From the IMG/VR virus record IMGVR_UViG_2850808358_000014: a stretch of 48,456 bases of DNA. One strand, given 5' to 3'. This document shows positions 29,515 through 45,835 of this stretch, piece after piece. Under the pieces are notes generated by a model. It did not search any database, was not told the DNA's origin, and saw only the letters and a program-made list of their open reading frames with translations. How positions within the stretch are numbered: position 1 is the stretch's first letter; every line of letters starts with the position of its first letter. The translations under genes and the position numbers were made by a program. The DNA comes from a virus (Duplodnaviria; Heunggongvirae; Uroviricota; Caudoviricetes).

Positions 29515-31033
29515 CCAGACGCCCCCATATATCGGCAACAAAAATGGCACGGGTCAGCATGTCGATAAGTTCTGCATCATCCATCTGCGGATATAATGAA
29601 GCGGCTTTGTTCATGGCGGCTTCCGGGCCATCTTTCAGCACAGAAAGAATGACGGGTTTCAGCAGGGGATCAACCGAACGCTGCCAGTCTTCCGGTGAAA
29701 CGCCCATCCGGTCGATATCATCCTCCTGCGGGATATCATCAGCGGATAATGCGGCTTCTTTCTGCGGACCGTTATCCATGACGACCGGTTGAGCAGTAAA
29801 CACGGCTTCATCACCGACCGGCTGTGGAATATGGAGTTTTTCCTGTATCCATGAGACCGGAATACGCATTCCCGCCGCCAGTTTCGGAATGGCGTCAGAC
29901 AGTGCCGTAATATCACCCGCTTCACTGGTATCAAATACAATGCCCGGCAGGCGGTTAATATCAATGGTGCTGCCACTGTTCAGTGCCAGCAGGGGATAAA
30001 TCAGATCACGGTTAATACTGCGGGCAAGCTGGCCCACATCCGCGTTACGGATTTCCCGGCGAACCTCATCATGCACTTCACCCAGCGACCGCGCGCCTTT
30101 ATCGCCAGCCTCTGTGGTCAGGGTGCCGCCCAGAATAGCTTTTGAAATCGCTTTTTCTGCCCAGCCAATCATCGCCATAAAGGGGTCTGACTGACCATCT
30201 GCGGCGCTCTGAAAATCCAGCGTCATCCCCATCGGAATAATGCCACCGGCACGTCGCCCGATATCCATCACGGCCTGCATCAGCGTGGCTTTCTCACGGT
30301 TCGTGGAGCCGGTCGGATATTTACCAACGCGCATGGGGAGTCCGTAAATTTCCAGAAACTCTGCAAAATCACGCACGGAATAGTTTTTAAAAATAAAAGG
30401 CCAGATAAGCGTGCGCACAAGGCCATTGGTGCCAACGTACCCGGTGCGGGATTTGGCCCGGTGCATAAACCAGCCGAACGGTTGCAGCTCCAGCCCGTGA
30501 TAAGACGCATCACGCAGGCGTAATTCGTTCAGATTGTCTGGGTTCGCGCAGAACAGCGCCGGATCGCGATGATGCAGCGCCACCGGTACGCGCATTTTCC
30601 CAAGCCCCCCCCATTCAATCTCCTGCATGGAATAGCCCTTGAGAATGGCATCACCGGCATCAAACAGGGCATCTTCAAACCACGCCGCATCATGCAGATA
30701 TTCATTCAGCATGTCGGCGTCTTTTTTCTCCTGTGCGCTGGCATCACGTGCCGGAGCGATGCGCCATTCCAGCGCCTGAATGGCAAGCCGGCGTTTGCTC
30801 AGTTCGGAAAAAAGGTGGGTGTCCTTTTCTTCCATATCAAAGGCCAGGTCAGCCTGTGCGGTCAGATCACCGCGTTCGGCATCACGCAGCATCTGCGCGG
30901 CCCGGTTCGGCGTCACACCACTGGAAGGATGCTCCTGCGTACGCTTCATGACCATTGCCAGCTCATCGCTGCGGGTCTGCATTTCATCGTCAAAATCAAA
31001 CGGCTGCCCGGAAATATCCAGAATACGGCCCAT
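29495..31033 (-). CDS. H: portal protein H (Mu gp29)
   Basis: 512 aa directly downstream of the large terminase. Confidence 0.9.
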   Translation of the reverse strand: MGRILDISGQPFDFDDEMQTRSDELAMVMKRTQEHPSSGVTPNRAAQMLRDAERGDLTAQADLAFDMEEKDTHLFSELSKRRLAIQALEWRIAPARDASAQEKKDADMLNEYLHDAAWFEDALFDAGDAILKGYSMQEIEWGGLGKMRVPVALHHRDPALFCANPDNLNELRLRDASYHGLELQPFGWFMHRAKSRTGYVGTNGLVRTLIWPFIFKNYSVRDFAEFLEIYGLPMRVGKYPTGSTNREKATLMQAVMDIGRRAGGIIPMGMTLDFQSAADGQSDPFMAMIGWAEKAISKAILGGTLTTEAGDKGARSLGEVHDEVRREIRNADVGQLARSINRDLIYPLLALNSGSTIDINRLPGIVFDTSEAGDITALSDAIPKLAAGMRIPVSWIQEKLHIPQPVGDEAVFTAQPVVMDNGPQKEAALSADDIPQEDDIDRMGVSPEDWQRSVDPLLKPVILSVLKDGPEAAMNKAASLYPQMDDAELIDMLTRAIFVADIWGRLDAAADH

Positions 31034-32688
31034 TACCAGCCCCCTCGTTCAAACTGGTGATAATCATCAAAATCATCGTTATCAACACCATCACCACGGT
31101 GGCGTGGTGGCAGCGCCTGTATGCTGTCCTCGTCGATAACAAAACCATTCATATAAGACGCCCTGACAGCCATACAGAGCGCCACGGCAAAGTCGCCATG
31201 TCGTCGGCCTTTACCGCCTTCGTCTTTTGTGCGCCCCTTATCAATCTGCGGAATACCTTTGTCCACCTTGATGTGGAGCAGGTCATCAAGTGTGGTCTGG
31301 TGCCGGGCAATCGTGATGTTCTGCGCTTCAAACTCGCCTTTCAGTTTCGGCATCCACTCCTGATACCAGGATGCGGTCAGATTCACACAGTCGATCATCT
31401 CCGGGCCATAAATCAGACGGGCGGCTTCTGCCAGATAACCGCCGTTACCGGTGGCATCAAATGCAGCGCCGGTAAAACGGGGCAAACGGGACAGAATGAA
31501 TAAAAGGATTTGTCGCTGCTGGTCATAGGTCACATTACGCAGCTCCACGCGGAAACATTCGCGTTTGCGTAAGTCAGGCGTGATGGCAAGCGGCACAAAC
31601 ACCGTCAGGTCGCCACGGCGTGCAAAGTCTTCGCCCAGTACGTGTTTATTGAGCGGCGACAGCGCATCGAGCAACGGGAGCAGCTCCTGTTCACACCAGT
31701 CCTGAACGATGCCGTGGCGCATTTGTGGTGTCAGCGATTCAAAATCGTCCGGGGCTTCAAAACGCAGAACCGGGATATCCCGCGCGGGTGTCATGGCAGC
31801 TTCAATCAGCACGCGTGACAGATAAGCGCCCCCGGATTTTTTAGGAATGCAGCCGTATTCCTCGTCGGCGCTCTCTTTATTCGGCGCATTCCGGTACAGG
31901 CCATCACGCCAGGCTTTTTCCGCTTCCGGCGACCACGGCTGATTCGTGACGTAACAGATACGCCGGTACAACCCGTCAGCGATGGCATCATCCAGTGTGA
32001 TGCGGTGAACGCTGTAATCCTTGCGCCCCTCGCGCGCATCCTGAATGTACTGGTTAAACAGGTTATCGACGCCGTTATGTGTCGATATGATGCGCACGCT
32101 GGCACCCCACATGTTTAGTGCAAAGGCCGCTTTCAGCAGTTCGTCCAGGGCTTCATGGAATGCCGCTTCATCAATCACCACGTCCCCCTGCAAACCACGC
32201 AGGTTAGACGGGCGGCTTGACAGCGCCTGTATCTTAAATCCGCTGTTCGGAAAGCGGATCATGTAGGTGAGGATTTCTTCTTTTTTGTCGCTGTCCCAGA
32301 AGGTCTGCTCCCAGACGTCAGCCTTTGCCAGCTGGTTAAAGGCGCGGGCAAACAGGGCACAGGCGGCGATGTATTCCAGCGCCATTTCCTGACGGGAACC
32401 CACATAAAAGACGTTGCGACCACCGCGACGCTTCGGCTTTGCTGCCGTCATGACATTGCGGCCCGCTTCAGCCCATGTCAGACCGGTACGACGGGATTTT
32501 TCAGCGATGCAAATCTGGCTTTCATCCTCAAACCAGCGGCGCTGATAGCCCAGAAAAACCGGTTCATTGCGGGGCTGTGCTTCCCCGATATCGGTCACGA
32601 TATTCACGCCGAGCAGTTCGGCTTCCTTACGCAGGTTGATTTTGCGGGGCGCATGAAGGGCTTTAAGTTTGCTTTCTCTGGTGCTCAC
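31033..32688 (-). CDS. E: terminase large subunit E (Mu gp28)
   Basis: 551 aa, GTG start, MSTRESKLKALHAPRK... Confidence 0.9.
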   Translation of the reverse strand: MSTRESKLKALHAPRKINLRKEAELLGVNIVTDIGEAQPRNEPVFLGYQRRWFEDESQICIAEKSRRTGLTWAEAGRNVMTAAKPKRRGGRNVFYVGSRQEMALEYIAACALFARAFNQLAKADVWEQTFWDSDKKEEILTYMIRFPNSGFKIQALSSRPSNLRGLQGDVVIDEAAFHEALDELLKAAFALNMWGASVRIISTHNGVDNLFNQYIQDAREGRKDYSVHRITLDDAIADGLYRRICYVTNQPWSPEAEKAWRDGLYRNAPNKESADEEYGCIPKKSGGAYLSRVLIEAAMTPARDIPVLRFEAPDDFESLTPQMRHGIVQDWCEQELLPLLDALSPLNKHVLGEDFARRGDLTVFVPLAITPDLRKRECFRVELRNVTYDQQRQILLFILSRLPRFTGAAFDATGNGGYLAEAARLIYGPEMIDCVNLTASWYQEWMPKLKGEFEAQNITIARHQTTLDDLLHIKVDKGIPQIDKGRTKDEGGKGRRHGDFAVALCMAVRASYMNGFVIDEDSIQALPPRHRGDGVDNDDFDDYHQFERGGW

Positions 32689-32743
32689 GGGTGAAAAATC
32701 CGGTATAAATTTTCAGGCATTAATCAGTAAAAAAGAGGTTTTT

Positions 32744-32938
32744 ATGAAAGAGAAACTGACCATTGATCAAAAAATCGAAATTGCCCGGATAGCCGTGCAA
32801 ATGTTTGAATCCACCCGGGCAAAAGGCGTTTCACTTGAGATCTCCTGTTCAGGAAAAGCATCAGTGGAAGAAAACACATTTAATGCTTTCTACAAAATTG
32901 TTGAAAAAACCGTTATCGGTGAACCTGAGAATAACTGA
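32744..32938 (+). CDS. hypothetical 64-aa protein on the opposite strand (low GC, strong RBS)
   Basis: AAGAGG-N5-ATG; about 37% GC; its 3' end overlaps the convergent 65-aa gene by about 25 bp. Confidence 0.5.
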   Translation: MKEKLTIDQKIEIARIAVQMFESTRAKGVSLEISCSGKASVEENTFNAFYKIVEKTVIGEPENN

Positions 32939-33110
32939 TCACCTGGCCCGCTGTAGCCGGGCCATCCACCAGTTGCATAACCAGATACAGGGCCTCGGCC
33001 ATAATTCGTGGATGGACTTCCGGATCCTCATCAATCTGTTTTTTCACAACGGGCCACAGTGCCATTGCCAGTTCTGTTGAGGTTTTGTATTTAGTTTTTT
33101 CATCCGCCAT
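32913..33110 (-). CDS. hypothetical 65-aa acidic protein
   Basis: GAGGAG SD; lies between gp27 and the large terminase. Confidence 0.5.
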   Translation of the reverse strand: MADEKTKYKTSTELAMALWPVVKKQIDEDPEVHPRIMAEALYLVMQLVDGPATAGQVISYSQVHR

Positions 33111-33120
33111 TTTCATCTCC

Positions 33121-33291
33121 TCAGGACAAAGTCCTTAGTTGTTTTATGGTCGTATGCCATGAATTGCCTGAAGCCATAGCCTGAACAAGCACATCCCGAA
33201 TCTGGTGTATCAACCGGACATCAGACAATGTTGCAATCCTGAAGGCTTTTTTATGGGCACTGATTAGCTGTGCTTTGTAATTATTTTTCAT
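33121..33291 (-). CDS. hypothetical 56-aa basic protein
   Basis: Starts 10 bp after the gp27 stop; no family recognised. Confidence 0.45.
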   Translation of the reverse strand: MKNNYKAQLISAHKKAFRIATLSDVRLIHQIRDVLVQAMASGNSWHTTIKQLRTLS

Positions 33292-33301
33292 AACGTAACG
33301 C

Positions 33302-33892
33302 CTACGCTTTCCCCAGCAGTACATCACGGATGCGCTGCTCCAGTTCTTCGCTGATGCCATCCTGCCCGCGCAGTTCTTCACTGACGGCGTTTGCCGCTTC
33401 TTCTGCGAACGCCTGGCGGATTTCTTTCTCGCGCCGGTGGCTGGACATTGCTGTGGATTCCAGACGCTGTGCCGCCAGCATGGCATTTTTCAGCAGGTCA
33501 ATATCCACGTCAGATTCCGGGTTTTCGATTTGCCGCATCATGGCCTTAAAAAGCTGGCTGCGGGCCATTTCCAGAATCAGCTTTGTGGTTTCGCCCATTG
33601 GCTTGTCGCCAAGCTCTGCGGTCAGTGCTGACGTCATTTCACGCATCTGTCGCAGGTTATGGCCTACCTGCTCGACGTTCGTCGCGTAACGGTTCAGACC
33701 GGAACGGGAGAGTTTCATCTCATCCGGCAGGCCAGCGTCTTCAATCAGTGCGTTAATTTCTTCAAGAATACGGGCCTGTGGGATCGCCTTATCACGCAGC
33801 ATTTCATGCAGCGTTTTACGTACGTTTTCCGGCAGTAAATCCACTTTTGAAGCCCGTCCCCGTGTTTTCCTGTCCATCACGCCTCCTGTCAT
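33302..33892 (-). CDS. Mu gp27-like DNA-binding protein (putative small terminase)
   Basis: 196 aa upstream of the large terminase. Confidence 0.8.
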   Translation of the reverse strand: MTGGVMDRKTRGRASKVDLLPENVRKTLHEMLRDKAIPQARILEEINALIEDAGLPDEMKLSRSGLNRYATNVEQVGHNLRQMREMTSALTAELGDKPMGETTKLILEMARSQLFKAMMRQIENPESDVDIDLLKNAMLAAQRLESTAMSSHRREKEIRQAFAEEAANAVSEELRGQDGISEELEQRIRDVLLGKA

Positions 33893-34179
33893 GCACGGGG
33901 ACGCGGACGCTTGACACCGGCAATGCGGGCACGGCCTTCCGCCACATCCTGACCACGGGAGGTCAGCGTTACGACATAAAAGCCGCGCAGGTTTTCCACG
34001 GTGACCAGTTGCTGCTCTGCCAGCCAGTCAATCTGGCCGCGAACCACATCACGGGAAACGTTGTGTCCGTATGCATCCAGACAGTCCTGAAGGATGGATT
34101 CGTTGGCTTCGTTATTGCAGTCCATCAGGGAACGCAGGATGACCAGACGACGGTCTTCGGTCAGAATATCGTTAATCAT
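33889..34179 (-). CDS. Mu gp26-like protein
   Basis: 96 aa, conserved position. Confidence 0.75.
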   Translation of the reverse strand: MINDILTEDRRLVILRSLMDCNNEANESILQDCLDAYGHNVSRDVVRGQIDWLAEQQLVTVENLRGFYVVTLTSRGQDVAEGRARIAGVKRPRPRA

Positions 34180-36341: not shown

Positions 36342-36572
36342 TCACTGAATTTTCTGTACACAATATTTTTCCTTATAACGTTGACAGTGGTGAAGAATTT
36401 CCGGCATATCAACTGACTGCCAGCCTTTCATGTAATAACTGCCGTGGGTGCCATCATGACCGGTATAGTCGCGGGGCGCAGGCCGTGGCCCACCGGCGAC
36501 ACGGTGCAAAACCTCCTGACGCAGCCGCTCACGTCTGCCAAGATGAAAGGATGCATTCCAGCCTTTACCCAT
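36342..36572 (-). CDS. small hypothetical protein between mor and C
   Basis: 76-aa ORF; a possible 46-aa hydrophobic ORF follows at about 36231-36345. Confidence 0.55.
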   Translation of the reverse strand: MGKGWNASFHLGRRERLRQEVLHRVAGGPRPAPRDYTGHDGTHGSYYMKGWQSVDMPEILHHCQRYKEKYCVQKIQ

Positions 36573-42497: not shown

Positions 42498-44494
42498 TTA
42501 AATGGCTTTTTTACGTCTGTTCTGTTCCAGAATATCCAGCGAATGATTCAGATATTCATCACGCTCAGTTTCGTATTCATCATCACGCTCCTGATTCTTC
42601 ACTCGTTCCGTATTACCGGAAGGCCGGAAAATGCCGACAATTCGTGATTCTGGTGCTTCAGGTTCGGCTATCTGCGGCAGCAGCTCTGCCACTTCCAGTG
42701 CATCCATTTGTTTCTGTGCCTTAATCGCTGCTTTCGTCGCAGATTTCAGTTGTTTCTGGCGGCGGCGATATTCACGGCCTGCCGCAGCATCATTAAACGC
42801 AACAGGTGCCAGACATTCCGCTTCACAGATAAACCGACCGTCCAGGGTGTAGCAATAAACCGTGCTGTGTAACTGCTGTGGATCAAATCTGACCACAACT
42901 TTTTTCACTCCGGCATTCATTAACGCCATGTTGTAATAAACGTTTTTCGCGCCTTTAAGGGAGCCGCCAACTTTAAGCGCGAACTCGCCTTTACGTGAAA
43001 CGTTCACCGCCTCGGCAGGCAGTAACAGCATCCGTTTTTGCTCTTCGGTAGGCTTACGCACAATCGTTCTGGCGTATTCACGCTCAAAAACGTCATCAAA
43101 CGAAAGTTTGCCTCCGCACATTTCTGTTTCACGGCCTGTTCTGGCATTGAACATCGCCACACCTTCGGCAAGGGTTTTCAGAAACAGCTCTGCATCAACA
43201 GCGCGGTCGCCATAGTTATCAGGTTTTGCCTGCGGATTTGGCCCCGTATATGCGCCAGCCAGTGCCGGATGCTTATCAACGTATTCCTCAAGCCCACCAA
43301 CACCGAAAGCACGTTCAACAGGTTTTGCCTGGCCCCAGCCTTTACCGGCAACAACGCTTGTCCAGTGCATTTTCGCCCCATCAGTAAAAACAGTCCTTTT
43401 GGATCGTCCTCTTTTACCTTAAAGCGGTAGCGATTGGGCGCGCCTCCCGTCAGCCATTTATTCGCAGCACCACGGGTGTTATCAATGGTGATGTGAAAAT
43501 CCTCCGGGATACCGTAGCGAGTCACAACATCCATGAACGAGAGGCGAATTGAATCAATGTTCTCGCTCACATCGCAGCGCCAGCCCAGAATTTTTCGGGT
43601 TTTCACATCCTGCCAGAACCATGTTTTCGGACGGATCACATCACCGTTAAACCAGCGTACAAAGACGTTATGCAGATAACCGTCGCCGTTGATCCACTGC
43701 ATGGCGTCCAGGTGTTCCACAGTTCGCTGCTGTGCCGGTATCAGATGCATCAGTGCATGTTCACCTTCACGACAGGCAACAACCATTGCCTCGTCCAGTT
43801 GCTGAATCCGGCGAAAGGCCGTGGCACGGGAGGGAATACTCCAGCCATGCTCGCGGGCTGCCAGTTCCAGACGCTCATAACATTTGCGGAAGGCGGGTTT
43901 TTCCGGTCGCAGATAATCTGCAATCAGAAACTGCCAGGCATCCTCGTCAAATTCACTTTTGTGAACATTGCGACGGGATGCTCCACGTCCATCAACAAGT
44001 GCAGCCGCCCAGTCAGGCTTCGCAAACTTCTGTACCTGGTAATACTTGTCCCGCAAAGTGGATGCGCTGACCTGGTAATGCCCTGCAACGGTCGCAAAAG
44101 CCGTTTTCGTTGAAATCCCCTGGTTCAGCATTTCGTCTGCAGCCTGAACCGCAGGCAACCATTTTTCAGCAAGTCTGCGCTGGGAATCGCTGGCGTTATC
44201 CCATTTGCTCCACAGTGCCTCACGATCATAATCATGGGCTTCCAGCGTGGGGCGGGCGATTTCAAAATACCCCTGGCTTGTTTCTATTTGCTCAGATTTT
44301 AATAACAACTCAGCACGTGCTGCCGCTGGTAGAACTGATATATGAAATTCCAAAGCCTTTGAACCCGTACGCTTGCGACGTAGTTCTGGATGATTGGCTG
44401 CAAGCTTTTCAAGATTGCGGCGAATACTCACCTCATGTTTAGGAAAGCATGACATTCCTACGCATTCTTGCGCTGTTACCCAATGGGTTAACAT
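42498..44494 (-). pseudogene. A: DDE transposase A, frameshifted
   Basis: 448-aa and 290-aa fragments both match Mu A; join ...FLLMG|AKMHWTSVV at a G/C run near 43377; N-terminal ~65 aa differ from Mu (D108-type). Confidence 0.9.
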
Positions 44495-44714
44495 GATGTT
44501 TTCTCCATATACCGAGAAGGCCAAATCTGGGCTGGTTCCATATCCAAATATCTAGCAATGATTGCTTCGTATCGTGGTATATGGCAGCGAAATACGTTAC
44601 GCATAGTGTCAGGCTTTAAGCCTGCCTCTCTGGATAATTGAGATAGTGTCTTCCCTTCATACGAACAGCAGCCTTTATCTGCTCTGCGTGCCAGTCTTGG
44701 TTTTTTGCTGACAT
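44488..44714 (-). pseudogene. ner: Ner-like early regulator (D108-type), frameshifted
   Basis: MSAKNQDWHAEQIKAAVRMKG then a frame slip near 44654; corrected it reads ...KTLSQLSREAGLKPDTMRNVFRCH... and ends overlapping the A start. Confidence 0.75.
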
Positions 44715-44883
44715 TCTGCGATCCTTACTCTCTTAACGTTTTCGGTAACTGATACCGGCTACCGCTATCGGGAAAAACGATAGCGCAGAAAAATGCGCAT
44801 TTCAAGAGCTGTGCGCATTTTTATTTTAACAAATGCAAATCAAAGCATTCTGTAAAATTCTTTATATAACAGAGAGATTGAAC
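44715..44883. promoter_or_regulatory. operator/promoter region between ner and c
   Basis: Divergent intergenic region, the position of operators O1-O3 and promoters Pe/Pc in Mu. Confidence 0.65.
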
Positions 44884-45492
44884 ATGACAGGCGAAAAAGA
44901 AAGCAAAAATGCAGAGCGCATTTTTATGCCCTCGGAAATAATGCGTTTCAAGGAACGCCTTGAAGAGGCAATGAATGGAGAATCAAGCCGGGCGTTTGCA
45001 GCTAAGTGCGGACTTTCTGATGGGGTTATCAGAAACTACCTGTCTGGCAAGACATACCCGTCTTTAGATCGATTAGCACAAATAGCCTACGCAACAGGGC
45101 GTCCAATAGAGTGGTTTATCCAAAGTCAGAGCATGCCAATGGTTGAGCATAAAAATGCTCAAGAGAATAAAAATCCTCAACCTGACCGCAGCACATTGAA
45201 AACTAAACTGATCGCAATTGTCGAATTGTTAGAGGACAAGGAACTGCATTCTGCGATTGAGTTGTTCAGAAAGAAAGGATTTGAAGCTCTTATGCCTGAG
45301 ATTTTTTCTTCCGATGATTCCATCCAGGCTGATTTGCAAGGTATTTCGCAGCAAACCTTACAAACAGCCAAAATGCTTGAATCATTACCAACAGATACCC
45401 GTAAAGAGATTTTGTCAAAGTATGGTATTTATGAACAGGAAGGTCTTGTAGCTCCTTCACAAGAACCACAAGATGTAAAAAAAGCCGTATAA
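44884..45492 (+). CDS. c: repressor c (non-Mu N-terminal DNA-binding region, Mu-like C-terminus)
   Basis: C-terminus ...ILSKYGIYEQEGLVAPSQEPQDVKKAV is close to Mu Repc; start taken at the second ATG, with an SD. Confidence 0.85.
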   Translation: MTGEKESKNAERIFMPSEIMRFKERLEEAMNGESSRAFAAKCGLSDGVIRNYLSGKTYPSLDRLAQIAYATGRPIEWFIQSQSMPMVEHKNAQENKNPQPDRSTLKTKLIAIVELLEDKELHSAIELFRKKGFEALMPEIFSSDDSIQADLQGISQQTLQTAKMLESLPTDTRKEILSKYGIYEQEGLVAPSQEPQDVKKAV

Positions 45493-45830: not shown

Positions 45831-45835
45831 GCCAG
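45831..45835. repeat. GCCAG target-site duplication, copy 2
   Basis: Identical to 8883-8887. Confidence 0.8.

What the first reader, a model, noticed from the sequence alone, without database searches (positions are those of the whole stretch)
32689..33301. Low-GC three-ORF cassette between Mu gp27 and the large terminase, including a convergent overlapping gene pair
About 610 bp here averages roughly 42% GC against roughly 52% for the surrounding late region. It holds a 56-aa and a 65-aa ORF on the late-gene strand and a 64-aa ORF on the opposite strand with a strong RBS, whose 3' end overlaps the 65-aa gene. A moron-like insert with an antisense-arranged pair in an otherwise unidirectional operon is a classic place for an accessory function such as toxin-antitoxin, anti-defence or superinfection exclusion.
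Basis: partly seen in the sequence, partly recalled or inferred. Interest (0 to 1): 0.65.

Follow-up and report, generated by a model that had tools for sequence, protein, structure and literature searches.

The report
Inhibitor–antidote-like gene cassette in Mu prophage
A 613-bp insert between the two DNA-packaging genes of a Mu-type prophage carries three real small genes laid out exactly like the Pseudomonas "Tab/anti-Tab" phage-defence pair, though unrelated in sequence, so it is probably a new prophage defence with its own antidote that could be tested directly on classical phage Mu.

Summary
Window 32689-33301 is a 613-bp, 42.6% GC insert that sits exactly where Mu, D108 and SfMu have a 7-bp gap between gp27 (small terminase) and gp28 (large terminase). 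It holds A (32744-32938, +, 64 aa), B (32913-33110, -, 65 aa) and C (33121-33291, -, 56 aa). All three are real genes. The cassette recurs at 35-70% protein identity in Mu-like prophages of Salmonella, Mixta, Apirhabdus and Erwinia-like hosts, always at this site. Median dN/dS is 0.33, 0.26 and 0.51. The A/B overlap is 26 bp in all but one variant. In 18 distinct loci A never occurs without B, while B, B+C or C occur without A. A GC-rich hairpin 5 nt after the A stop lies inside B codons and is frozen at synonymous sites in A-bearing loci. No protein family, fold or RNA family matches. The layout copies Tab/anti-Tab of Pseudomonas Mu-like phage JBD26: an opposite-strand gene convergent and overlapping with a late-strand gene, between the terminase genes. 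There is no detectable sequence similarity to Tab or anti-Tab. My best reading, at about 40% confidence, is that A is a prophage-expressed inhibitor and B its late-expressed antidote. The function is untested.

The parts
32689..33301 (.). 613-bp accessory cassette between TerL start and gp27 stop; 42.6% GC
   Evidence: Absent in Mu, D108 and SfMu, which have a 7-bp gap here. GC.
32744..32938 (+). Gene A, 64 aa, antisense to the late operon; proposed prophage-expressed inhibitor (Tab-like role)
   Evidence: Homologues at 34-63% identity, always at this site. Median dN/dS 0.33; codons 1-17 pN/pS 0.11, middle 0.79. AF2 gives two helices, 7-26 and 41-58, pLDDT 67.5. No match in Pfam, PHROG function categories, NCBIfam or PADLOC. 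No match in 50,697 phage genomes.
32735..32738 (+). Shine-Dalgarno GAGG of A, 5 nt before the ATG
   Evidence: Read from the sequence. GAGG/GGGG is kept 5-8 nt upstream of the ATG in 11 of the 12 distinct A-bearing loci; L028 has GAGAG about 11 nt upstream.
32704..32710 (+). -10-like element TATAAAT, candidate promoter of A (inferred, weak)
   Evidence: At the equivalent position other loci keep the block TGATAA[T/G]GT or TGGTAAGGT, which resembles an extended -10. The strict sigma-70 consensus scan finds nothing here or in L019 or L006.
32944..32964 (.). Conserved hairpin/palindrome TGGCCCG-N7-CGGGCCA, 5 nt after the A stop and inside B codons D49-Q56; proposed 3'-end stem-loop of the A transcript
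   Evidence: Intact in 12 of 12 A-bearing loci, dG -9.6 to -18.7. The four free third-codon positions conform in 47 of 48 codons in A-bearing loci, against 8 of 16 in the 4 of 5 A-less B loci analysed. 96% of cells are paired; one pair shows U-A to C-G changes in 2 loci. No U-tract follows on either strand.
32913..33110 (-). Gene B, 65 aa, on the late strand; proposed antidote (anti-Tab-like role)
33121..33291 (-). Gene C, 56 aa, on the late strand; its stop TGA overlaps the SD of B; optional member, role unknown
32692..32706 (+). Left copy of an imperfect 15-bp direct repeat (TGAAAAATCCGGTAT) that brackets the A module
   Evidence: The A-less Tongde form joins at these points. This may be chance.
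32902..32916 (+). Right copy of the direct repeat (TGAAAAAACCGTTAT)
33302..33877 (-). gp27 (DUF3486 / Phage_Mu_Gp27, small terminase); upstream boundary of the cassette
31033..32688 (-). gp28, large terminase; downstream boundary. GTG start with no Shine-Dalgarno

Best explanation

Shown: A, B and C are conserved protein-coding genes. A lies on the strand opposite the late operon, with its own ribosome-binding site. B, and C where present, lie on the late strand directly after gp27 and are tightly spaced, so they are presumably made from the late (Plys) transcript. A and B converge and overlap by 26 bp. A GC-rich hairpin just past the A stop is held constant at the nucleotide level.

Inferred: the cassette works like Tab/anti-Tab of Pseudomonas phage JBD26. 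In the lysogen A is transcribed from its own weak, extended -10-type promoter, and its mRNA ends at or is protected by the hairpin. A is a small two-helix protein whose invariant 17-residue N-terminus binds a conserved component of related (Mu-family) phages and blocks a late step of their development. When the resident prophage is induced, the late operon produces B, a three-helix protein that binds and neutralises A so that the prophage is not blocked by its own defence. B on its own would also let a phage escape A made by another prophage. C is an optional passenger or second counter-measure.
For: Position and layout match the only characterised system at this site. In JBD26, TerS is followed by atab on the late strand, then tab on the opposite strand, convergent with a 47-bp overlap, then TerL. 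tab has its own promoter and is expressed from the prophage. Anti-Tab binds Tab, and tab is always accompanied by atab (PMC10884400; coordinates).

Here the order is gp27, (C), B, then convergent A with a 26-bp overlap, then TerL. This holds in 11 of 12 distinct A-bearing loci from at least 5 genera; SE11 has an 11-bp overlap.

The asymmetric co-occurrence expected of an inhibitor and antidote is present. A+B+C occurs in 9 loci, A+B in 3, B+C in 3, B alone in 2, C alone in 1, and A without B in 0. The single apparent exception is explained by homopolymer sequencing errors.

The decay series ABC, then BC with a broken hairpin, then C with a 12-codon B remnant, is seen in close relatives of the window.

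All three genes are under purifying selection. A has an invariant N-terminus and a fast-evolving middle, pN/pS 0.11 against 0.79, as expected for a binder in an arms race.

The hairpin is fixed at synonymous sites only where A is present, with one exception.

The insert is absent from Mu and D108 and has a foreign GC content.
Against: hhalign finds no similarity of A to Tab, or of B or C to anti-Tab (probability below 1%). No family, defence-model or fold match exists for any of the three proteins.

No sigma-70 consensus promoter lies upstream of A in the window, L019 or L006. Expression of A in lysogens is therefore unproven.

The hairpin has no U-tract, shows almost no covariation, and is retained in one B-only locus, L031. 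It could serve the late transcript or act as a DNA site instead.

The co-occurrence of A and B is confounded by tight linkage and a small sample of about 18 distinct loci. No A-B interaction could be modelled here. The A model has low confidence, pLDDT 67.5.
Confidence: 0.4

Rival explanations
1. Three independent morons that happen to share a permissive insertion site. A is some lysogenic-conversion or host-modulating factor. B and C are unrelated late accessory proteins. There is no functional A-B link.
For: The site is a hotspot with at least five occupancy states. The modules are gained and lost separately. C does not co-vary with A type: the window and Mixta share an A type but carry different C types. 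No interaction evidence exists.
Against: A never occurs without B in 12 distinct loci, including two-gene variants and alleles at 34-45% identity. The 26-bp convergent overlap and the hairpin are conserved. The layout is identical to a characterised functional pair.
Confidence: 0.25
2. A toxin-antitoxin, addiction or abortive-infection module. One product (A or B) is toxic to the host and the other neutralises it, stabilising the prophage or killing infected cells.
For: The genes are small, paired and overlapping with asymmetric co-occurrence. The convergent overlap recalls antisense-controlled (type I-like) pairs.
Against: No PADLOC, Pfam or NCBIfam toxin or antitoxin domain matches. Neither protein is hydrophobic like type I toxins (sequences). 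The two genes belong to different transcription programmes, lysogenic against late, so an antitoxin on the late strand would be absent in the lysogen. B persists alone in several lineages.
Confidence: 0.1
3. An RNA-level regulatory device. Transcription from the A side, together with the conserved hairpin, controls the late operon and tunes TerL dosage through transcriptional interference, antisense pairing, or attenuation or processing between B and TerL. The A peptide is secondary.
For: The hairpin is constrained at the nucleotide level and is kept in one B-only locus. TerL in the window has a GTG start and no SD, so its expression might depend on upstream RNA features. The layout is convergent.
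Against: A is clearly selected as a protein: dN/dS 0.33, with an N-terminus at pN/pS 0.11 while its synonymous sites vary freely. Mu manages without any of this. There is no Rfam match.
Confidence: 0.1
4. B and/or C are accessory DNA-packaging factors that work with gp27 and gp28, for example by modulating pac recognition or terminase assembly. A is an unrelated passenger.
For: They sit between the terminase subunits in the late operon with tight spacing suggestive of translational coupling. C gives a weak hit to PHROG 220, 'minor head protein and DNA pilot', E 3.8e-4.
Against: Mu, D108 and SfMu, with 97% identical terminases, lack them. B is deleted in nine E. coli prophages and C is absent in others. 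The PHROG hit is to a 52-residue stretch of a 1338-position profile and is probably spurious.
Confidence: 0.08
5. The opposite-strand ORF A is a chance ORF in AT-rich spacer DNA and only B and C are genes.
For: Its GC is the lowest in the cassette, 37.5%. It has no promoter consensus and no match in cultured phage genomes.
Against: Twelve distinct orthologues of 61-68 aa have a conserved start, SD and stop position. pN is well below pS, and the invariant N-terminal peptide is encoded by varying synonymous codons.
Confidence: 0.02

Closest known systems
Tab / anti-Tab (gp31 / gp30) of Pseudomonas aeruginosa Mu-like phage JBD26 (Casadabanvirus); Patel et al., Nat Commun 2024, PMC10884400
   Same: [quoted passage not shown] In both, one small gene lies on the strand opposite the late operon. 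A small late-strand gene follows TerS directly. The two converge with overlapping 3' ends: 47 bp in JBD26 and 26 bp here. The opposite-strand gene is never found without the late-strand partner. The proteins are small (83 aa there, 64-65 aa here) and have no known domains. Close relatives (DMS3 and D3112 there; Mu and D108 here) lack the cassette.
   Different: There is no detectable sequence similarity (hhalign probability below 1%). The host clade differs: Enterobacterales rather than Pseudomonas. An optional third gene, C, is present here. The conserved hairpin lies outside A and inside B. No promoter, expression, defence phenotype, target (tape-measure protein for Tab) or binding has been shown here. 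The paper states that Tab homologues are known only in close relatives of JBD26.
Phage morons (Hendrix/Juhala concept): autonomous promoter-gene-terminator units inserted between late genes
   Same: A foreign-GC insert placed precisely between two adjacent essential late genes. It is absent in close relatives. Module A has its own RBS, a candidate promoter and a 3' hairpin.
   Different: The hairpin lacks the U-tract of an intrinsic terminator and the promoter is non-consensus. Two of the three genes have no expression signals of their own and ride on the late transcript.
Toxin-antitoxin pairs with convergent or antisense organisation (type I, such as hok/sok, or type II)
   Same: Small paired genes with overlapping antisense 3' ends, and an asymmetric dependence of one gene on the other.
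   Different: There is no hydrophobic toxin and no TA or PADLOC domain. The partners belong to different temporal programmes, lysogenic against late. Both partners are proteins under purifying selection.
Anti-CRISPR/aca accessory locus of Pseudomonas Mu-like phages (between the G and protease/scaffold genes)
   Same: A variable accessory locus of small unannotated genes embedded in the late region of Mu-like phages.
   Different: The position differs: terminase junction rather than the G-I junction. All acr/aca genes are co-oriented with their own promoter. There is no HTH Aca-like gene here and no similarity to any known Acr in the libraries searched.

Membership tests
Tab/anti-Tab defence system (JBD26 type) | [quoted passage not shown] | tested here: met
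   Cassette at 32689-33301, between gp27 and gp28. The same holds in all related loci. JBD26 layout.
Tab/anti-Tab defence system (JBD26 type) | Inhibitor gene on the strand opposite the late operon, convergent and overlapping with a late-strand partner that follows TerS | tested here: met
   A(+) against B(-), 26-bp overlap. JBD26 tab(-) against atab(+), 47-bp overlap.
Tab/anti-Tab defence system (JBD26 type) | Inhibitor always accompanied by the antidote gene | tested here: met
   A occurs with B in 12 of 12 distinct loci. B occurs without A in 5 loci.
Tab/anti-Tab defence system (JBD26 type) | Sequence homology to Tab (YP_010299225 / AEY99485) and anti-Tab (AEY99449) | tested here: not met
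   hhalign of the A, B and C profiles against the JBD26 proteins gives probability 0.1-0.2% with 1 aligned column.
Tab/anti-Tab defence system (JBD26 type) | Own promoter; inhibitor expressed from the prophage | tested here: inconclusive
   A block resembling a conserved extended -10, TGATAA[T/G]GT, lies upstream of A in most loci, with TATAAAT in the window. No sigma-70 consensus site is found. No expression data are available.
Tab/anti-Tab defence system (JBD26 type) | Inhibitor blocks tail assembly of invading phages via the tape-measure protein; antidote binds the inhibitor | not testable with these tools
   This needs plaque assays, EM and two-hybrid or co-purification.
Phage moron | Extra DNA between two genes that are adjacent in related phages, with deviant base composition | tested here: met
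   Mu, D108 and SfMu have a 7-bp gap. GC is 0.426 against 0.519.
Phage moron | Flanked by its own promoter and factor-independent terminator | tested here: inconclusive
   A conserved 3' hairpin is present but has no U-tract. The promoter is non-consensus. The terminator-like site at 33123-33135 is not conserved, and the scan found no more sites than in shuffled sequence.
Toxin-antitoxin / known defence systems (PADLOC, Pfam, NCBIfam models) | Match to a known toxin, antitoxin or defence protein model | tested here: not met
   No hits for A, B or C at E up to 1.

The most novel reading that the evidence does not exclude
A/B is a previously unrecognised prophage defence plus self-immunity pair of enterobacterial Mu-family phages. 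It evolved independently of Tab/anti-Tab at the same genomic junction. Under this reading, the invariant 17-residue N-terminal helix of A targets a conserved Mu-family late protein that need not be the tape measure; it could be the terminase or another assembly factor. The nucleotide-frozen hairpin in the convergent overlap adds an RNA-level switch that couples shut-off of A to late transcription. That would make the 'inhibitor antisense to antidote between the terminase genes' layout a convergently evolved, general design rather than a JBD26 oddity.
Probability: 0.22. Interest if true: 0.75.

Novelty: new variant of a known kind. Interest (0 to 1): 0.58.

Why it matters
Assembly-blocking prophage defences with a built-in antidote are known from a single Pseudomonas example, and its authors found homologues only in that phage's close relatives. 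A non-homologous cassette with the same architecture at the same junction in enterobacterial Mu-like prophages would show that the design is recurrent, and it would supply a second system to compare.

The system is also unusually easy to test. Classical Mu, D108 and SfMu are 97% identical in the flanking genes and naturally lack the cassette, so they are ready-made sensitive controls. Natural variants with A+B+C, A+B, B+C, B only and C only already exist.

The site is also an unreported variable hotspot in Muvirus genomes. The nucleotide-frozen hairpin inside a coding sequence is a clean case of dual coding and RNA (or DNA) constraint.

Tried and rejected
- **Family searches.** Pfam, NCBIfam and PADLOC scans of A, B and C gave nothing. 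PHROGs gave only unknown-function families, plus a weak and probably spurious hit of C to PHROG 220.
- **PDB profile searches.** Hits of B to designed armadillo-repeat proteins and of C to a 'circular tendon repeat' had no single stretch passing threshold. The B hits vanished with a broader B alignment, so I treat all of them as summed low-complexity helix matches. The 1094-aa hit in the representative search is a Sel1-repeat protein, likewise spurious. I dropped the idea that B is a solo ARM-like repeat.
- **Homology to JBD26.** hhalign of A, B and C against Tab and anti-Tab found nothing.
- **Known RNAs.** Rfam found nothing.
- **Promoters.** Consensus promoter scans in three loci found nothing upstream of A.
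- **Terminator-like site.** The + strand site at 33123-33135 is not conserved in relatives, and the scan found no more terminator-like sites than in shuffled sequence.
- **JBD26 inverted repeat.** The 8-bp inverted repeat in the JBD26 atab/tab overlap is not exceptional by shuffling, z about -0.6, so I do not claim a shared hairpin feature.
- **Apparent 'A with broken B' case.** In Apirhabdus CP138906 all differences from metagenomic copies are one-base indels, all but one within homopolymer runs, so this is an assembly artefact.
- **Wider searches.** The one-per-species genome set and IMG/VR added few loci. The family is rare.

Full report
**What is in the window.** The window holds a complete Mu-type prophage at 8888-45830, in reverse orientation. 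It is flanked by a 5-bp target duplication, GCCAG, so the late genes run on the minus strand. TerL (Mu gp28) is 31033-32688 and gp27 (DUF3486, small terminase) is 33302-33877. Between them lie 613 bp (32689-33301) at 42.6% GC. The prophage as a whole is 51.9% GC and the adjacent 2 kb on each side are about 55-57%. Only 3.4% of 613-bp windows in the prophage are as AT-rich, and most of the lower ones lie in the immunity region.

The segment contains three ORFs:
- A: 32744-32938 (+), 64 aa, with GAGG 5 nt before the ATG.
- B: 32913-33110 (-), 65 aa. The conserved start is MADEK, which has GAGGAG 6 nt upstream.
- C: 33121-33291 (-), 56 aa. Its stop TGA overlaps the SD of B.

A and B converge and overlap by 26 bp.

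**Absence from canonical Mu.** In Mu (AF083977), D108, SfMu, Mu_3F6, PhiR68_1 and four Yersinia Mu-like phages, the flanks are 97% identical but gp27 stop and gp28 start are only 7 bp apart. Among 50,697 deposited phage genomes, only Yersinia phage Tongde has part of the insert, namely B and C without A. A has no tblastn match at all in that collection. Among 5,426 complete E. coli genomes:
- one (RM8082) has the whole cassette at 98.4% identity, and PGAP annotates all three genes;
- nine have only C plus a 12-codon remnant of B;
- three (SE11 type) have a diverged A2+B2 pair without C.

The junction is thus a variable hotspot with at least five occupancy states, and the cassette is modular.

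**Are these real genes?** Yes. Protein searches and context look-ups found the same arrangement in Mu-like prophages of Mixta intestinalis, Apirhabdus apintestini, Salmonella enterica, an Erwinia-like population and several metagenomic contigs. It always lies between a Phage_Mu_Gp27 gene and TerL. Identity to the window proteins is 34-63% for A, 42-71% for B and 21-28% for C.

In 11 of the 12 distinct A-bearing loci the A/B overlap is exactly 26 bp; in SE11 it is 11 bp. Where C is present it overlaps the B start by 8 bp or abuts it.

Pairwise Nei-Gojobori estimates give saturated synonymous divergence (pS 0.6-0.86) with much lower pN. Median dN/dS is 0.33 for A, 0.26 for B and 0.51 for C. For A the first 17 codons (MKEKLTIDQKIQIAxIA) have pN/pS 0.11 while their third positions vary freely. 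The middle is near neutral (0.79) and the C-terminal helix intermediate (0.54). The chance-ORF reading of A is effectively excluded.

**Co-occurrence.** After collapsing duplicates I have 18 distinct loci:

| Genes present | Distinct loci | Note |
|---|---|---|
| A+B+C | 9 | |
| A+B | 3 | |
| B+C | 3 | one shallow lineage close to the window type |
| B only | 2 | distant lineages |
| C only | 1 | with a B remnant |
| A without B | 0 | |

An apparent B frameshift next to an intact A in the Apirhabdus isolate genome is one of nine one-base indels, all but one in homopolymer runs, relative to metagenomic copies. It is almost certainly an assembly error. The pattern is what one expects if A is tolerable only in the presence of B, while B is useful or neutral by itself. 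In the window's closest relatives the series ABC, then BC, then C with a B remnant, can be read directly from alignments.

**The hairpin.** Five nucleotides after the A stop, and inside B codons 49-56 (VDGPxTAGQ), lies TGGCCCG-N7-CGGGCCA (32944-32964). It is intact in all 12 A-bearing loci, with dG from -9.6 to -18.7 kcal/mol.

Each of the four 'free' third-codon positions in the stem (GGC, CCG, GCG, GGC) pairs with a base that is fixed by the amino acid on the other arm. Pairing can therefore be kept only by invariance. That is what is observed: 47 of 48 codons conform in A-bearing loci. Other invariant residues of B (L41, Q46, I58, E39, A40) use several codons.

In the four A-less B loci analysed in the codon alignment only 8 of 16 codons conform, and in all four (the three Tongde/E. 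albertii/L025 loci and L030) the stem is broken. L031 (B only), which was not in that alignment, keeps the stem. Formal pair counting shows 96% of cells paired but only one covarying pair, U-A to C-G in two loci with two mismatches elsewhere. The support is therefore synonymous-site invariance rather than covariation.

No U-tract follows on either strand, so this is not a canonical intrinsic terminator. I read it as the 3'-end stem-loop (stabiliser or pause site) of the A transcript. A role in the late transcript, or as a palindromic DNA site, is not excluded. There is no Rfam match.

**What the proteins look like.** None of the three matches Pfam, NCBIfam or PADLOC. The PHROG hits are to unknown-function families. 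An exhaustive HMM search with B against 1.84 billion representative proteins found only seven clusters, six of them 63-68-aa proteins (four with a known context are in Mu-like late operons) and one spurious repeat protein.

**The decisive comparison.** Patel et al. (Nat Commun 2024, PMC10884400) describe Tab in Pseudomonas Mu-like phage JBD26. Their findings:
- It is expressed from the prophage and blocks tail assembly of invading phages through their tape-measure protein.
- It is always accompanied by anti-Tab, an 83-aa late-strand gene directly after the small terminase. Anti-Tab binds Tab and protects the phage during its own lytic cycle.
- atab alone could not be deleted, and atab alone makes phage DMS3 resistant to Tab.

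In the JBD26 record (JN811560) TerS is followed by atab, then tab convergent with a 47-bp overlap, then TerL. The cassette here reproduces that position, strand logic, convergent overlap, small domain-less proteins and one-way dependence.

Profile comparisons nonetheless show no similarity of A to Tab, or of B or C to anti-Tab. The paper itself states that Tab homologues are known only in close relatives of JBD26. I therefore do not file A/B as members of the Tab/anti-Tab families. I propose that they work like them.

**Proposed mechanism, with status.**

*Shown:*
- The gene order, strands, overlap, conservation, selection and co-occurrence described above.
- The nucleotide-level constraint on the hairpin.
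- The absence of the cassette from Mu.

*Inferred:*
- A is transcribed in the lysogen from a non-consensus promoter. A conserved block TGATAA[T/G]GT or TGGTAAGGT lies 33-40 nt upstream of the ATG in most loci, and TATAAAT in the window type. No consensus hit was found.
- The A mRNA ends at the hairpin.
- The invariant N-terminal helix of A binds a conserved late component of Mu-family phages and blocks their development.
- B, made from the late transcript after induction, sequesters A.
- C is optional.

I give this about 40%. The main rival, at 25%, is that the genes are functionally unconnected morons sharing a hotspot. Smaller shares go to a TA or abortive-infection module, an RNA-level regulator of late and TerL expression, and packaging accessory factors. 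Each is set out with its refuting experiment in the rival explanations section.

**Novelty and interest.** If the analogy holds, this is a second, sequence-unrelated instance of an 'assembly or late-stage blocker plus antidote' cassette at the terminase junction, now in the Enterobacterales Mu lineage. That would argue for convergent evolution of the layout. It is directly testable because classical Mu, D108 and SfMu lack the cassette and natural A+B+C, A+B, B+C, B-only and C-only variants exist. The function is unproven, so I score interest at 0.58 and class it as a new variant of a known kind.

Noticed in passing
window 32675-32720 (TerL start at 32688, minus strand): TerL begins with GTG and has no Shine-Dalgarno upstream (late strand ...CCGGATTTTTCACCC|GTG). 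Mu has GAGGG-N2-ATG, and the Salmonella/L012-type loci have CAGGT 8 nt upstream. RM8082 and Tongde have ATG but the same SD-less leader. How TerL is translated in cassette-bearing E. coli phages is unexplained.
   Followed up: partly
window 8883-8887 and 45831-45835; prophage 8888-45830: A complete 36.9-kb Mu-type prophage with intact Mu ends and a 5-bp target-site duplication, GCCAG. This indicates a clean, probably recent, transpositional insertion.
   Followed up: yes
window about 36358-36360: Relative to Mu, the segment Mu 9463-9831 is missing. It covers essentially all of gene 19, a predicted 4-TM protein. The flanks are 97% identical.
   Followed up: no
window about 44288-45372: The immunity region (c repressor, ner, 5' end of transposase A) does not align to Mu at blastn sensitivity and has the lowest GC of the prophage (0.37-0.41). 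It is a heteroimmune Mu relative, as D108 is.
   Followed up: no
window 32692-32706 and 32902-32916: An imperfect 15-bp direct repeat (13 of 15 bases) brackets the A module. The A-less Tongde-type sequence joins at these points but keeps parts of both copies, so it is not a clean repeat-mediated deletion. This may be chance.
   Followed up: partly
L003 (E. coli RM8082) 1228-1479; protein cluster P0009: PGAP and other annotations start A at an upstream GTG or TTG (83-89 aa), overlapping the TerL start. That extension is not conserved in other genera. The conserved start is the MKEKL ATG, which has the SD.
   Followed up: yes
[not shown]
   Followed up: partly
L027 (JBD26, JN811560) 2090-2117: The atab/tab overlap contains a perfect 8-bp inverted repeat, CTTCTGGG...CCCAGAAG, that encodes Leu-Leu-Gly on both strands. 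Its folding energy is not unusual against shuffles (z about -0.6).
   Followed up: partly
L011/L013 (Apirhabdus apintestini CP138906.1): Nine one-base indels, all but one in homopolymer runs, relative to metagenomic copies of the same prophage disrupt TerL, portal, gp27 and B. This is typical of long-read assembly error rather than pseudogenisation.
   Followed up: yes
window 11503-12687: Two stretches match the Mu G-segment region (Mu 32937-34120) at only about 70% identity, alongside the main 94% alignment. This is consistent with the paralogous S/U and S'/U' tail-fibre copies of the invertible segment.
   Followed up: no
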